From: Eledone cirrhosa
Lineage: Eukaryota
NCBI GenBank assembly: GCA_964016885.1
Contig: OZ024745.1
Span: 129,394,001 to 129,458,000 of the forward strand
Reading direction: 5' to 3'
Length of the DNA: 64,000 nt
Shown: positions 11,583 through 60,899 of the stretch, one piece after another
Numbering within the stretch: position 1 is the stretch's first letter
Layout of the letters: every line of letters starts with the position of its first letter
Notes under the pieces: model-generated
What the model saw: only the letters and a program-made list of their open reading frames with translations
Database searches by the model: none
Told to the model about the DNA's origin: nothing
Made by a program: the position numbers and the translations under genes

Positions 11583-11789
11583 CACACAAACACACATATA
11601 TGTGTGTGTGTGTGTGTGTGTGTGTGTGTGTGTGTGTGTGTGTGTGTGTGTGTGTGTGTGTGTGTGTGTGTGTGTGTGTGTGTGTGTGTGTGTGTGTGTG
11701 TGTGTGTGTGTGTGTGTGTGTGTGTGTGTGTGCGTGTGCGTGTGTGTGTGTGTGAGTGTTTATATATATATATATTTAATATAGAAATG

Positions 11790-11838
11790 GCTTCTACAGG
11801 ACTAGAACTGTTTCATTCGAGAGAAATCATCAGGAAGC
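11790..11838 (-). ncRNA. Type I hammerhead ribozyme motif (left arm of a fold-back)
   Basis: Minus strand: GCTTC CTGATGA TTTC-TCTC-GAAT GAAA CAG-TTCTAGTC-CTG TA GAAGC; degenerate plus-strand partners at 11839-11882 and 12043-12090. Confidence 0.75.
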
Positions 11839-12282
11839 CCGATGATTTCTCCCGAATGAAACAGTTCTAGTCTCGTAGAAGCCATTTCTATATTAAATAT
11901 TTATATTCTGACATGTATTGGCTACCTTAATTACTGTGGTTACCCTCCATTAAATCTGGGATAAACTTATATATATATGTATGTAATAATAATAAATGTG
12001 AAGGTTGTATATATATAGTATAAATATTTAATATAGAAATGGATTCCTGATGATTTCTCCCGAATAAAACAGTTCTAGTCCCGTAGAAGCCATTTCTATT
12101 TTAAATGTATATATATATATATATATATATATATATATATATATATATATATATATATATATATATATATTTACAGTTTTGCAAGAGATGTCAACATGAA
12201 TGGACTTGTTATTTTTATCTAAAGACATATTTTCCAAATTCTAACCCGCCCGTCCCCTCAATCTATTTTATTTCTCATTCTT

Positions 12283-12318
12283 TCTTCTGATGAAGGTCTA
12301 GCGTCCGAAACGTTAAGA
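12283..12318 (+). ncRNA. Minimal hammerhead ribozyme motif
   Basis: TCTT CTGATGA AGG-TCTAGCGT-CC GAAA CG TT AAGA; loopless palindromic helix III as in PLE minimal HHRs. Confidence 0.65.
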
Positions 12319-13289
12319 CCCTTTCCTGCTATATCAAGCGTTAACCTAATATATACCTTCCATATACTGTACCGATTGCGTTGTTATTTCTGTTTACCTT
12401 TTACACGCGCGCACACACACACACACACACACACACACACACACACACACACACACACACACACACACACACACACACACACACACACACACACACACAC
12501 ACACACACCTATATATATATGAATAAAGTTGTGGCATATGAATGGAGAAAAGCATTTTAAACTGCCACAATTGTTTATGTTCTACACAGAGGTTGTTAGA
12601 AAATGGTAGGACATACATAGGAATTATGTTGGTACTTCTATTATAAATATAATTCGTTCATTTACTAAAGAAACGAATCGTTTGTAGAACAATAAGTTTA
12701 CTGTATTATTTTATAGGCATCTCATGACTTCTAATTAAAGACCCGTGCGAGGACAGGTTTCTGTGTTAATTTTGTTGAATGGAAAATGCCAACATTTCTC
12801 ACATGAAACATATTTCTATCTACGTTACGATTTATGCTCTGTGCTTCCTAATACACTTGACACATCTCGTTTACACCAACTATGGGAAAAGGAAAAAAAA
12901 AGAGATCATAGTAAAATAAACATAGTAATTAACACAATTTATATAGTTAATTTTTATCTGAAGTATAAATAATAAAATAACATTTTTGAAACTTTATGAC
13001 CATTAAAGAGGGCTCTTGGGAGGTTGATTATATTAGTGTTACTGTTGATGCTGTTGTAGGTGGCGGTGGTGGCTGTGGTGGTAAAAAGATCGGTGATAGC
13101 TGTGATGTCGATGGTGCTTAGTGGTGGTGTGGAGCTCACAGCATAGAAGTGATGTTTCTCGTGGTTGTGACTCATCTTTTAAGATTGAGGGTTTACAGAT
13201 TTTAGTCGGGAGACCATCAGATAGAATGCCTTGTGCTGATTCTTCCTTATTTCCACATTGTGAGTTCAAATCACGCCGGGGTTAAGATC

Positions 13290-13545
13290 TTTCTTCTTCT
13301 TCTTCTTCTTCTTCTTCTTCTTCTTCTTCTTCTTCTTCTTCTTCTTCTTCTTCTTCTTCTTCTTCTTTGCCCAATTATAGAGAACGTCGCGGGGACAGAG
13401 TCCCTAGACACACCTTCCAGCGGGTCCTGGTCAGAAGCAACCACCTGCAACTGATCTGGCTGGATCCTCAAACGAAACTAGCTAATATTATGGATGTTAT
13501 CCAACCATCCTGCTCGGGGTCTACCCCTGAGTCTCCTTCTTTCGA
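13290..13545 (-). mobile_element. RTE-like LINE 3' end with (AAG)n tail
   Basis: Minus strand RPRAGWLDNI..LQVVASDQD then GGGCAAA(GAA)n; homologous to 16497-16850 and 39920-40203. Confidence 0.6.
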
Positions 13546-14993
13546 AATGTAGTGATGAAAAATGAGTATATACAGTAGAAAATATATTTTTTAGAAATAA
13601 TGAATTTTCAAGAAAATCAGACTGAAATGTACTACGAATATTGATAATGAATCGATCGTTTACACGTATGTATGTGTGACCTTAATTCTTTCTGAAACAT
13701 AGCCCACAGCAGCAATAAAGTATGTGCCACCATCTCTCCCCCTCGTGGCAGTAAAACTGATTGAAATGAAGAGGTCATGGGAGGCCAATGTCCCCTGAAT
13801 GAACCTGCAACTGAATGCAACTATTGCTCTCAGCTGGCAACGCGCAGCCTCAGCAGTGTGGAATGAAACCAGGTCTTTGAGGGGACAGGCGGGTGGGCGT
13901 CAACACTGCCACTGCGTCAGGGGAACAACCTAAAACTATGGTCAATTCTCCTCATCTCTCTCTCAAACATTTTTTCTTTATCTACTTTTGTCCTCCATTC
14001 TTTCTTTCTTTCTTTCTTTCTTTCTTTCTTTCTTTCTTTCTGTCTGTCTGTCTGTCTGTCTGTCTGTCTGTCTGTCTGTCTATCTGTCTGTCTGACGAAC
14101 TCTGTCTCTGTCTATCTGTCTTCAGCTGTCTATAAGTGTCTTTTTCTCTGAACCGATTACACCAGGCTGTAAGAATTCGTTCATAACTAAATATTGAAGA
14201 AGGACTGTCGTGAGTATTTGACTGTGTACTTTATGGTGTTGGTAAAGGCTGTGAAAGTGTTGTTGTAAAGGGTGTTAATAGTGGTGTAAGTGGCGGTCTG
14301 GGTGGTGGGTTTGATGGTTGTAGTTTTGGTGGAAGAGATTATGTTATGCCTGAATGGGGCTAATACTGTTAATGACAGTGTAGCAATAGTGTTACTGGTG
14401 ATGATGATAGTGATTGAAGTGATGGTGGTGGTGGTGGGGGTGGGGGTGTGTGATGGAATTTGCTGTCTTGTTGGTGTTAGTCGAAACTGAGAGAAGAAGC
14501 AACGGTGGTAGTAATGATGATAGATTTTTTTGATTAATCGACTAACATTAGACATACGGTACGATAGTTGTTAATTGAAAGTCTAAGATCGATAAATATT
14601 CCACCCTTGAAAATGTTTTTTTTCCTTTTTTTTTTAACTTCTTATACACATATAACTAAATATACATTAAAGAGTATCGAATATACGCAGTTTAGCGCAT
14701 CAATAATTTAATAATTGACTATGTAACCAACGGAAACATTATTTATGCAAATCAGACTAAGAGATTTAGTTATTTCATGATGTCTGGTGTCTATAAACTA
14801 TAAACTCTGTAATATAATTATTGAAATTTGTTTTTTCCTACAGATTTCTACAAGTTTCATACTTGACGACCCAATATATACTATAAACTATATCTTTATA
14901 GCATGGTGTCTTTATTACCCTTGAAATCAACTTATAGCTGTTATATATATACTCATCAGGATAATGTCATAGATTTTACATTCACTGCCTCCG

Positions 14994-58569: not shown

Positions 58570-59544
58570 ATCAGGTCATCCGCGATTAAACCGGCAACCT
58601 CACTAAGCTTGCCTTTTGAGGAAGGTGATTTGCGACACCCTATGGGATGAAAAACATAACCCGTTAAAGGAACTCAGGAGAATCAACGGCCATCCAATGA
58701 AGTTTTTTTTTTTTTGTGGAGCGAGTGAACTCCTATTCTTCATTAAGATATCTCTCTAGGAGAAGGTTAGACTGATATAAAAGCTGCCACTTCGTTTACA
58801 TCCAATGATGTAGACCAGTTCTTCCTTTTGGGAAAATACATTCGATGTTCAGAGAGTGGGACTGGCCTCGCGCAAAGCCTTTCCTCACATAAAAAAAGCT
58901 TCAAGCACAGGCATCGCTTTGATATATGCCATTTTTTTGCGATGCATGTAATTGCTGGCCATAGGCAGGTCCCTATGAGGACTAAAATTCGTGGTCCGTG
59001 ATGCTCATGCTTAAGTATCAAGCGATTACTCGAAATCAAGTTGCAGCCATCACGTATGTATGTATGTATGTATGTATGTATGTATGTAAAGGCAAAGGAC
59101 CTCTTAAGAGTCAATAGCCATCCAAAATCACCGGGAGAGATGACCCCTTAGCCTTTGTCAAGGCAGAATTCTAGGAGAAGGAAAACTCTGATATAACACC
59201 TGCAACCCTGATGGTATCCAATGATGTTGAATTGTTCTTCTTTTTGGTAAATATCATCTTGGTTAAGAGAGTGGGACTGGCTTTGTGCAGTGCCTTTGCT
59301 CACTATAAAAGCTTCACAGCACAGGCATTGCTTTATATCTGGAGATCTCTCTGCACTTGTCGTCACATGGTACCATAGGCCCAGCACTATGTGTCAATAA
59401 TTGTCACAAGTGTAGTGTTTGTACCAGAGTTTTCAAGTCACTGGCTGGACTAAAAAGTCACACTCGTTCAGCGCATCGGTAGGGGTTCTCCTACATGGAT
59501 ATAAAGTAGTGGCCGTACTCGAAAACGAGTTGGCAGCCACCATG
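58570..59544 (+). mobile_element. Diverged (58570-59053) and young (59088-59544) copies of the RTE-derived element in tandem
   Basis: Shared TCCAATGATGT..GAGAGTGGGACTGGC..CACAGGCAT and CTCGAAA..GTTG(G)CAGCCA-(TATG)n ends. Confidence 0.7.
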
Positions 59545-59886
59545 TATGTATGTATGTATCTATGTATGTATGTATGTATGTATGTATGTATGTATGTACG
59601 TATGTATGTATATATGAATGTATGTATATGTATTTATATGTGTATTATGTATGTATATATATATATATATATATATATATATATATATATATATATATAT
59701 ATATATGTATATGAGAGAGAGAGAGAGATAAATATACACGGGTGTGTATGATTGTGTATAGAAGATTATATTAATAAAAGGAATTCCAACTTTGTCTGAT
59801 TTACTCATTTTATTTACAATCCTTTAAAATTTATAATGGTATTAGAATGTAATAGTATGGTAGGATATTAAATGTTAAGTCTTAAT

Positions 59887-59924
59887 TGAACAAGTACTTT
59901 CATGCTTTCGCAATCTTCAGGTTC
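59887..59924 (-). ncRNA. Minimal hammerhead motif (left arm)
   Basis: Minus strand: GAAC CTGAAGA TTGC GAAA GCATGAAAGTAC TT GTTC. Confidence 0.55.
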
Positions 59925-59997
59925 TGATTCTGTACTGACAGTCAAGTTTGCGATTTTCACAGTTGAAAATTGCAAACTTGACTGTCACGACAGAATA

Positions 59998-60036
59998 TGA
60001 ACCTGAAGATTGCGAAAGCATGACAGTACTTGTTCA
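59998..60036 (+). ncRNA. Minimal hammerhead motif lacking helix II (right arm)
   Basis: TGAAC CTGAAGA TTGC GAAA GCATGACAGTAC TT GTTCA. Confidence 0.58.
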
Positions 60037-60899
60037 ATTAACACTTACCATTTAATATTCTACCATATTATTTCATTCTAATACCATTATAAATTGTAAA
60101 GGATTGTAAATAAAACGAGTAAATCAGACAAAGTTGGAATTCCTTTTATTAATATATATATATATATATATATATATATATATATATATATATATATATA
60201 TATATATATAGAGAGAGAGAGAGAGAGAGAGAGAGATGTAGGTGTATGGTGTATATCAAGAGTTGAGAGACAGTTAACAGCTGGTTTCGCCGAGGTGGAG
60301 GTTGTCAACTTTTCATTTAATTATTTTCTAGTTTACGTCCGTCACATTTAGCTATTCTCCTTTGCATTACTTTCTCTGTCAACCTGCTACCACTGTCCAC
60401 GCCTCTCTCCTCCTCTCTCACTCTCTTTCTTACTCCCCCTCTCTCTCTCGCTTTCTCTCTCTCTCCCTCTCTCTTTCTCTCTCTGTGTCTCTGTCATACT
60501 CTGTCTCTCTCTCTCTCTCTCTCTCTCAGTCATACTCTGTCTCTCTCTCTCTCTTATTCTCTCTTTCTCTCTCTGTGCCTCTGTCTCTCTGTCTCTGTCT
60601 TTCTCTGTCTCTCTCTCTCTCTCTCTCTCTCTCTCTCTCTCTCTCTTTCTCTCTCTCTCTCTCTCTCTCTCTGTCTCTGCCTCTCTCTCTCTCTTTCTCT
60701 GTGTCTGTGTCTCTCACATAATCTCTTGTAACCTGTTGGTAATATTTCTTTCTCCGCCCCCCTCCTTGCCCTTCCATAACTGCTACGGCAGCTGTCTTCA
60801 CCTAAATCTTATCATCATAACACACATCAACCTCCAATGTCAGCATCATACGCACACCAACACCTGTAACAAACATCATGCCCATTGCCTCTATTGATA

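What the first reader, a model, noticed from the sequence alone, without database searches (positions are those of the whole stretch)
11775..60155. All HHR-bearing fold-backs share one polarity: 5' ends inward, pLTR 3' ends outward
Seen: in seven inverted pairs (11775-11898, 17296-17412, 19461-19580, 31890-32191, 45270-45430, 46078-46327, 59767-60155) the left arm reads as ribozyme on the minus strand and the right arm on the plus strand, and the arms meet at or a short way upstream of the ribozyme. Established: PLE insertions often have inverted pLTR segments. Inference: both DNA ends of a break in the self-complementary (TA)n target prime reverse transcription from an RNA 3' end, yielding MITE-like palindromes by a retro-mechanism. 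Such elements would probably be mis-annotated as MITEs.
Basis: partly seen in the sequence, partly recalled or inferred. Interest (0 to 1): 0.75.

Follow-up and report, generated by a model that had tools for sequence, protein, structure and literature searches.

The report
Penelope stubs primed from both ends
These mirror-image repeats are very short head-to-head copies of the ends of Penelope-type jumping genes sitting in TA runs, almost always with one long-tailed and one short arm, which likely means both cut DNA ends start copying the element's RNA at two fixed spots and would explain a long-unexplained shape of these elements.

Summary
The seven fold-backs and their 5'-in/3'-out polarity are real. 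They are 5'-truncated ends of protein-coding Penelope-like elements (PLEs): B, C, D (and more weakly E) trace to Hydra-type ORFs, F to a Neptune-type ORF, A to none. In 1.46 Mb of this genome, touching same-family neighbours are 67 head-to-head against 4 tail-to-tail. Joints vary by locus. The short arm often holds sequence the tail arm lacks, which argues against the published self-priming model and favours two primings. Corrections: only 3 of 7 pairs have the unchanged core in at least one arm; two pairs carry half-ribozymes only; joints ignore the cleavage site (3 of 144 arms); priming is likely internal, not at an RNA 3' end. Head-to-head polarity is in print (PMC3846280); the strict tail/short pairing was not found in my searches. 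This scan noted the same thing before, here and in other genomes.

The parts
11776..11838 (-). Family A short arm (whole hammerhead, ends at short site S in TA run)
11840..11968 (+). Family A tail arm (core reads CCGATGA; about 75-nt tail to long site L)
17270..17353 (-). Family B tail arm, 3' half of hammerhead only, tail with an internal deletion
17354..17412 (+). Family B short arm, 3' half of hammerhead only
19380..19519 (-). Family B tail arm (about 80-nt tail), 3' half of hammerhead only
19520..19580 (+). Family B short arm; shares a rare base with the tail arm
31760..32003 (-). Family C tail arm (about 135-nt tail), starts inside loop II; joint about 31997-32007
32004..32195 (+). Family C short arm with decayed core (CAGAGGA); reaches about 100 nt further 5' than the tail arm
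45176..45333 (-). Family D tail arm (Hydra-type pLTR end, core CAGAAGA, about 90-nt tail)
45334..45356 (.). 23-nt filler at the family D joint
45357..45428 (+). Family D short arm
46077..46220 (-). Family E short arm, whole hammerhead; reaches 36 nt further 5' than the tail arm
46224..46421 (+). Family E tail arm, whole hammerhead, about 90-nt tail; identical to its partner over 93 compared positions
59729..59963 (-). Family F tail arm (Neptune-type pLTR end), whole hammerhead, about 40-nt tail
59964..60154 (+). Family F short arm (GAAA reads GACA)
7104..7232 (.).
25278..25407 (.).
25498..25572 (.).
25633..25949 (.). Family E head-to-head unit: tail arm (minus, 25633-25901) plus a partner cut off by another repeat after 25949
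48435..50368 (-). Long 5'-truncated family B element: Hydra-type ORF remnant (49187-50368) and pLTR with whole U3-A8 hammerhead, short end

Best explanation
The fold-backs are the shortest insertions of endonuclease-bearing Penelope-like retrotransposons, each a tail-bearing arm joined head-to-head to a short arm, and they likely form anew at each site when both 3' ends of a cut in a TA run prime reverse transcription at two fixed internal points of the element's RNA. Steps: (1) the RT/GIY-YIG protein cuts both strands in (TA)n. The TA preference is shown here; two-strand cutting and extension was shown in vitro for a different PLE. (2) One DNA end primes at site L and the other at site S, 40-135 nt further 5'. 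The fixed ends and their strict pairing are shown; priming is inferred. (3) In Hydra-type families a small RCTC...GAGY stem 4-7 nt beyond each site likely positions the enzyme. The stem is shown; its role is inferred. (4) Both cDNAs likely copy one uncleaved RNA. The L-primed cDNA either stops where the S-primed one began (tail-only arm, no palindrome) or displaces it and re-copies the same stretch (palindrome); inferred. (5) Both stop near a preferred 5' boundary and are joined end to end with 0 to a few tens of filler bases; the variable joints are shown, the repair route is inferred. The stubs lack the stem beyond L, so they are likely dead ends, and the hammerhead is a passenger.
For: Polarity is 67:4 at gap <=30 against 9:15 at 300-5000. 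Of 76 head-to-head pairs (gap <=130), 72 are tail+short, 1 short+short, 0 tail+tail and 3 unclassifiable; p = 1.6e-20 against independent choice. Leaving out the window's 9 pairs gives 63 of 64. Of 20 full-length family D loci, 8 show both outer ends and all 8 are tail+short: the ORF-bearing arm is short in 3 and tailed in 5. Of 30 family F loci picked by likeness to the tail arm alone, 13 have an inverted partner (one is the window's own) and all 13 are short. Solo copies end at either site. The short arm reaches >10 nt further 5' in 26 pairs, the tail arm in 7 (p = 0.0013), and 39 are within 10 nt. Twelve tail arms are tail-only and 11 of them stop at S-2 to S+19 (p = 8e-5 against uniform, window chosen after seeing the data). 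Joints differ among young copies whose arms are 0-3% apart and fall in 10 length classes among 30 family B loci (counted by eye). The partner arm is the nearest arm in 32 of 54 pairs against about 5 expected; median distance 0.052 against 0.143. Parent ORFs. The stem lies beyond S in 5 of 6 families and beyond L in both families where that sequence was seen, with an A-T/G-C swap of its outer pair. In vitro, an anole PLE cuts and extends both strands, starts at two internal sites that bound the tail, is predicted to be a dimer and does not need ribozyme cleavage (PMC11167929).
Against: No biochemistry on these elements. Central deletions after insertion could also shorten one arm, though they should not favour the tail arm. 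One centre type recurs in about 11 of 30 family B loci, which also fits a palindromic master or a self-priming hot spot. Arm likeness shows a common source subfamily, not a common molecule: only 4 private variants are shared by both arms against 55 in one arm, and gene conversion could give the same. One short+short pair exists (L142). About 44% of fragments (120 of 272) are not in close head-to-head pairs, and 17 of 30 F loci show no inverted partner within 1.5 kb. Family F obeys the rule without the stem. PMC11167929 saw no difference in start site between top and bottom strands in vitro. Families share ancestry, so the six are not independent tests. No parent ORF was found for family A, and only one weak link for E. 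No long reads were available.
Confidence: 0.7

Rival explanations
1. Two separate RNA molecules (dual priming) are held by an asymmetric dimer that forces one to start at S and the other at L.
For: It explains the polarity, the tail+short rule and the overlapping arms without strand displacement. A few pairs have arms as far apart as unrelated copies (L071, L135). Dual priming was proposed for L1 (PMC2837659).
Against: It gives no reason for tail arms to stop at S (11 of 12 tail-only arms) or for the tail arm to be the shorter one 26:7. Arms match by subfamily in most pairs (32 of 54 nearest).
Confidence: 0.12
2. Self-priming or snap-back: one strand folds back at its end and copies itself (published as self-priming on an antisense template), with the endonuclease trimming one end at S.
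For: It predicts head-to-head polarity, palindromic joints and matching arms (PMC3846280). Family B joints lie at a natural hairpin (loop II). PMC8557442 ascribes the tail to endonuclease resolution.
Against: A copied arm must lie within its template. In 26 of 72 pairs the short arm holds sequence the tail arm lacks, 12 tail arms share nothing with the short arm, and in 3 of 8 full-length elements the kilobase ORF arm is the short one. All of these would need later one-sided deletions.
Confidence: 0.1
3. A few palindromic master copies are transcribed and retrotransposed whole, and their centres later erode by cruciform processing.
For: Identical outer ends in all 30 best family B matches and one recurrent centre in about 11 of 30 (those loci were selected by likeness to the whole unit).
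Against: Young copies of one subfamily have different joints. The short outer end is never 5'-truncated as a template's far end would be. The same ends occur on solo and full-length copies, and there is a continuum up to 4-kb units. Stubs lack the stem beyond L.
Confidence: 0.05
4. They are MITEs of a TA-targeting DNA transposon, or fold-back assembly artefacts.
For: Palindromic cores flanked by TA. No long read was laid across any of the seven joints.
Against: The true ends are not inverted repeats (one has the tail). The sequences are pLTR ends of RT-coding elements. Arms differ by a median 5% and joints carry filler. Left-to-right-arm joints of other lengths occur in contigs of one run and in 86 raw reads of another.
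Confidence: 0.03

Closest known systems
Insertion architecture of endonuclease-positive Penelope-like elements (Arkhipova 2013, PMC3846280; Craig 2021, PMC8557442 Fig. 2 legend)
   Same: Inverted 5'-truncated pLTR joined head-to-head, called the most frequently observed arrangement; palindromes at the joint; tail often at one end only; TA targets; hammerhead in the pLTR.
   Different: Here the units are mostly pLTR-only stubs of 130-450 bp, tails are 40-135 nt rather than 30-40, and the tail is shown to be strictly complementary (one of each) rather than optional. The papers propose self-priming or endonuclease resolution.
Hydra clade of C-terminal-EN PLEs (PMC8557442, section 11)
   Same: The family D parent ORF (709 aa) has DKT, CxCx5C, CxxC and CxH, lacks CCHH, carries a hammerhead and inserts in (TA)n. 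Families B, C and E lie downstream of 42-51% identical ORF ends.
   Different: RWK reads LCWR. Unit length is about 3.2 kb rather than <3 kb. Family D's core reads CAGAAGA and family B's is the U3-A8 variant. No phylogeny with named Hydra elements was built.
Anole Poseidon element PAc in vitro (Frangieh 2024, PMC11167929)
   Same: Both strands cut and extended; two internal RT start sites bounding the tail; start in a stem-loop; cleavage by the hammerhead not needed; dimer predicted.
   Different: A different clade. The parts I read do not assign one site to each DNA end, report no strand difference in start site, and do not derive inverted structures.
L1 twin priming and dual priming (PMC2837659)
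   Same: Both target nicks prime cDNA on one RNA and give head-to-head fragments; the 12 tail-only units are this product.
   Different: In L1 the second primer anneals at a variable internal site by microhomology and usually leaves a deletion. Here the second site is fixed and the arms usually overlap, giving a palindrome in nearly every paired insertion.
MITEs (Stowaway/Tc1-mariner type; features recalled, no call)
   Same: Short, non-coding, high-copy, fold-back shape flanked by TA.
   Different: No terminal inverted repeat at the real ends, variable centre, RT-coding parent.

Membership tests
EN+ Penelope-like element | Single ORF with RT and C-terminal GIY-YIG endonuclease in the parent | tested here: met
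   D: 709-aa ORF with YRDD, IVYKC and AYIG motifs; B, C and E: homologous ORF ends upstream in 3, 3 and 1 loci; F: Neptune-type EN ends. Read by motif: Pfam and PDB gave no significant match; 622 mostly unnamed homologues. Family A: no parent found.
EN+ Penelope-like element | Pseudo-LTRs in direct (partial tandem) or inverted arrangement | tested here: met
   Family D pLTR before and after the ORF, and inverted partners, in 20 full-length loci
EN+ Penelope-like element | Tail present at one end of the unit | tested here: met
   72 of 73 pairs; 8 of 8 full-length units
EN+ Penelope-like element | Type I hammerhead motif in the pLTR | tested here: met
   Core, stems and cleavage triplet found in all six references; U3-A8 variant known from PLEs (PMC4209133). 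Predicted monomer folds are no more stable than shuffles (z -1.96 to +0.99); activity not tested
EN+ Penelope-like element | Target-site duplication | not testable with these tools
   124 of 142 outer ends abut TA runs; no empty alleles available
Hydra clade | DKT in place of DKG | tested here: met
   Residue 115 of the D ORF
Hydra clade | CxCx5C linker, CxxC and CxH around conserved E and N, no CCHH | tested here: met
   Residues 564, 662 and 690; no cysteine pair inside the GIY-YIG core
Hydra clade | RWK motif | tested here: inconclusive
   Reads R-L-C-W-R at residues 35-39
Hydra clade | Monophyly with named Hydra elements | not tested
   No named reference sequences were fetched
Neptune clade (family F) | CX2-5CxxC finger before the GIY-YIG and CCHH motif within it | tested here: met
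   Translated EN ends upstream of F in L214, L223 and L227; no tree built, so 'Neptune-type'
MITE / TIR DNA transposon | Inverted repeats at both true termini and a fixed internal sequence | tested here: not met
   One terminus carries a 40-135-nt unpaired tail; centres vary
Non-LTR retrozyme | Tandem units each with a hammerhead | tested here: not met
   1 tandem against 67 head-to-head neighbours at gap <=30; definition from 10.64898/2026.07.22.740005
L1-type twin priming product | Two inverted fragments of one element with both 3' ends outward | tested here: met
L1-type twin priming product | Variable second priming site and internal deletion | tested here: not met
   The second site is fixed; arms overlap in most of the 72 pairs and only 12 are tail-only. 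It works like twin priming but is not the L1 form

The most novel reading that the evidence does not exclude
Double priming is the normal, built-in insertion route of endonuclease-bearing Penelope-like elements: a dimer grips one RNA at two structure-marked sites near its 5' end, each cut DNA end makes a strong-stop-like cDNA, and the fate of these two cDNAs (joined at once, or one jumping to the 3' pLTR) produces the stubs, the inverted pLTRs, the one-sided tail and the partial tandems alike. This would be a third retrotransposition scheme, between LINE-type target priming and LTR-type strand transfer, in the closest relatives of telomerase.
Probability: 0.35. Interest if true: 0.8.

Novelty: new variant of a known kind. 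Interest (0 to 1): 0.5.

Why it matters
How PLEs make their inverted pLTRs and tails is listed as open in PMC8557442, and the published guess is self-priming (PMC3846280). The tail/short rule ties genome anatomy to the two in vitro start sites (PMC11167929) and gives a direct test: one site per DNA end, one RNA. It holds in Hydra-type and Neptune-type families. The six families alone give 53 such pairs in 1.2 Mb of spread-out loci, roughly 130,000 genome-wide by extrapolation. Repeat annotation of this genome may therefore file many retro-insertions as DNA transposons, and transcribed copies would be ready-made double-stranded RNA (inference, not tested).

Tried and rejected
Rfam scan: dominated by microsatellite matches to miRNA models, no hammerhead in the 150 of 212 rows shown. 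A guessed canonical-core pattern for family B found nothing genome-wide; the real core is the U3-A8 variant. Pfam and PDB searches of the ORFs gave no significant match. Monomer folding of six hammerheads was not better than shuffles. Ribozyme cleavage as the source of the joint: rejected, 3 of 144 arms. Read support for single loci: inconclusive. Family copies swamp the stretch, no listed contig piece bridges either joint with 31 letters on both sides, and only short reads and contigs were offered. At 98% likeness one raw-read run covers the family C joint at depth about 11, but loose ends nearby show that many reads come from other copies. Family-blind fold-back scan: 282 calls, 90 dropped (satellite locus L102 and arms >=700 nt) before counting. 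The first end-classifier mislabelled short family D arms as partly tailed because the tail start is AT-rich; it was replaced by a G/C-position test. The single-copy palindrome at 53110-53446 is not part of the system.

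
Full report
Setting. The window is G000:C5:129394001-129458000 of a 3.0-Gb animal genome, AT-rich and full of microsatellites. For counts I used the window, 200 kb of flanks and 120 ten-kb stretches taken at round coordinates on 19 large contigs, 1.464 Mb in all. The stretches were not chosen for content, but they are not a formal random sample.

Observation. All seven inverted pairs are there. They belong to six repeat families, A (11775), B (17296, 19461), C (31890), D (45270), E (46078) and F (59767). 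For each I built a profile from one real copy plus sampled hits, which gave 272 fragments. Neighbouring same-family fragments within 30 nt are 67 head-to-head, 4 tail-to-tail and 1 tandem; within 100 nt, 73, 10 and 3. At 300-5000 nt they are 9, 15 and 13. Nine of the 10 close tail-to-tail cases have a TA run between them, as expected of separate insertions in one target, and the tenth is an internal duplication. A family-blind scan gave 282 fold-backs, 192 after dropping a satellite locus and arms of 700 nt or more. Of the 121 outside the six families, 9 carry a strict hammerhead: 8 point outward across a direct joint and 1 points inward across a TA run (background 0.3% per 170-nt strand). The polarity is therefore real.

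The ribozyme description needs correcting. Only 46078 has an unchanged core on both arms. 11775 and 59767 have one changed arm each. 45270 has the family-wide CAGAAGA. 31890 has half a ribozyme on one side. Both B pairs have only the 3' half, because their joint is inside loop II of a U3-A8 variant hammerhead (variant described in PMC4209133, passages). Across 72 pairs only 18 have the whole core on both arms, and only 3 of 144 arms begin within 5 nt of the predicted cut. The templates were therefore mostly uncleaved, and the ribozyme does not set the joint.

What they are. Longer copies lead to coding elements. [quoted passage not shown] It has DKT, CxCx5C, CxxC and CxH and lacks CCHH, the marks of the Hydra clade (PMC8557442 section 11). 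B, C and E lie downstream of 39-51% identical ORF ends in 3, 3 and 1 loci; one of these is in the window at 49187-50368. F lies downstream of endonuclease ends with the Neptune-type zinc finger and CCHH. No parent was found for A. Pfam and PDB did not recognise the ORF, so the assignment rests on motifs read against the paper.

Every family has two fixed 3' ends, a short site S and a long site L 40-135 nt further on. Of 76 head-to-head pairs with gap up to 130 nt, 72 join a tail arm (whole or partial tail) to a short arm, 1 joins two short arms, none joins two tails, and 3 could not be classed (p = 1.6e-20). So do 8 of 8 full-length D elements that show both outer ends, out of 20 fetched. So do 13 of 13 inverted partners among 30 F loci picked by likeness to the tail arm alone; 17 showed no partner. 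Outer ends abut TA runs in 124 of 142 cases against an 11% background. Beyond the six families, 54 of 106 direct-joint fold-backs have TA at exactly one edge, 5 at both and 47 at neither, so the same shape is likely more widespread.

Mechanism. Joints vary. Thirty family B matches fall in 10 centre-length classes, though one class holds about 11 (counted by eye). Young copies of one subfamily with arms 0-3% apart have different joints. This points to assembly at each insertion. A fold-back copy must lie within its template, yet the short arm reaches more than 10 nt further 5' in 26 pairs against 7 for the tail arm. Twelve tail arms are tail-only, and in 3 of 8 full-length elements the ORF-bearing arm is the short one while in 5 it is the tailed one. 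Two separate primings account for this directly; self-priming needs later one-sided deletions. Eleven of the 12 tail-only arms stop between S-2 and S+19 (p = 8e-5 with a window chosen afterwards), as if the L-primed enzyme ran into the place where the S-primed one began on the same RNA. Partners are each other's nearest arm in 32 of 54 pairs (about 5 expected), but only 4 private variants are shared against 55 unshared, so this shows a common source, not a common molecule. Inner ends cluster 50-70 nt upstream of S in A (36 of 42 fragments) and more loosely in B and D, and sharply at one position in F. A transcript start or a strong RT stop could explain this; it is untested.

A lead from earlier notes of this scan, tested here. 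An RCTC...GAGY stem starts 5-7 nt beyond S in A, B, C, D and E, is kept in 49 of 53 tail arms checked (A, B, D, E), and appears again 4-7 nt beyond L in the two families where that sequence was seen (B in one locus, D in 17 loci). Its outer pair switches between A-T and G-C. F lacks it. If it positions the enzyme, stubs ending at L cannot be templates and are dead ends (inference).

Comparison with print. Arkhipova 2013 (PMC3846280, passages) describes the inverted pLTR, the optional tail, palindromic joints and head-to-head as the most frequent arrangement, and proposes self-priming on an antisense template. Craig 2021 (PMC8557442, passages and section 11) draws the tail at one end, ascribes it to endonuclease resolution and lists the origin of these structures as open. 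Frangieh 2024 (PMC11167929, parts 1-2 of 4 with abstract and main text) shows two-strand cutting and extension, two internal start sites bounding the tail, a predicted dimer and no need for ribozyme cleavage, but does not in those parts link a site to a DNA end. L1 twin and dual priming are from PMC2837659 (passages). I also saw passages of PMC13282606 and PMC8969392 and part 1 of 5 of bioRxiv 10.64898/2026.07.22.740005; none addresses the pairing. Searches found no paper stating the strict tail/short pairing or twin priming for PLEs. The library lacks most subscription papers, including older Penelope reviews, and I opened no supplements; Fig. S2 of PMC11167929 may bear on this. MITE features are recalled, not from a call.

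Artefact check. Diverged arms, filler bases and recurrence at many loci argue against mis-assembly. Left-to-right-arm joints of other lengths appear in contigs of one run and in 86 raw reads of another. Locus-specific proof was not obtained.

Earlier notes. The scan holds 48 findings with these words in at least 14 genomes and many in this genome. They agree with a reading I had reached before looking; they are not independent support.

Verdict. The feature is real and is ordinary in kind: truncated PLE ends in a known head-to-head layout. What is worth attention is the strict one-tail, one-short rule in two PLE clades, which favours fixed-site twin priming (0.7) over two RNAs (0.12), self-priming (0.1) or a palindromic master (0.05), and turns an open question into a defined experiment. 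Interest 0.5; new variant of a known kind.

Noticed in passing
window 53110-53446: A single-copy 106-127-nt sequence is duplicated in inverted form (99% identical) around a (TA)44 run, right beside a family B end at 53051; only these two matches were found in the genome. No hammerhead. Either a fold-back repair event at a TA break or an assembly artefact.
   Followed up: partly
window 45637-45812: Fold-back of 88-nt arms with a direct palindromic joint, TA at one edge only and no hammerhead by my descriptor; same shape as the PLE stubs, family unknown.
   Followed up: partly
window 32713-33939 (+) and 35356 (+): A second Hydra-like ORF remnant (47% identical to the family D protein) with a hammerhead about 1.4 kb downstream, likely its 3' pLTR.
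   Followed up: no
window 2422 (-), 4597 (+), 5110 (-): Three more type I hammerhead motifs of other families, not in close fold-backs.
   Followed up: no
family D, e.g. window 45333 and 45362, L182: The hammerhead core reads CAGAAGA (U4 to A) in most copies, including full-length coding ones, so a very abundant PLE may spread with a changed or inactive ribozyme.
   Followed up: partly
families B and C, e.g. window 48470-48560 (-), L079:1610-1740: Unusually long loop II, about 55 and 115 nt between core and GAAA; family B also has the U3-A8 core.
   Followed up: partly
L206 and L207, around 1390-1731: Two family F copies are preceded by the same inverted family E piece: a cross-family head-to-head joint (Hydra-type with Neptune-type) present at two loci 290 kb apart, perhaps one duplicated event.
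   Followed up: no
L205-L234, 5' ends of family F: Many F copies start at one position just after CAG, which in full copies follows a pyrimidine-rich stretch like a 3' splice site; may be a transcript start or a spliced-RNA boundary. The loci were selected by a query starting there.
   Followed up: no
L102 (G000:C7:30000001-30010000): AT-rich satellite built of nested inverted units; dropped from the fold-back counts.
   Followed up: no
window 15294-16279: Tandem array with a period of 159-177 nt; not examined for ribozymes beyond the descriptor scan, which found none.
   Followed up: no
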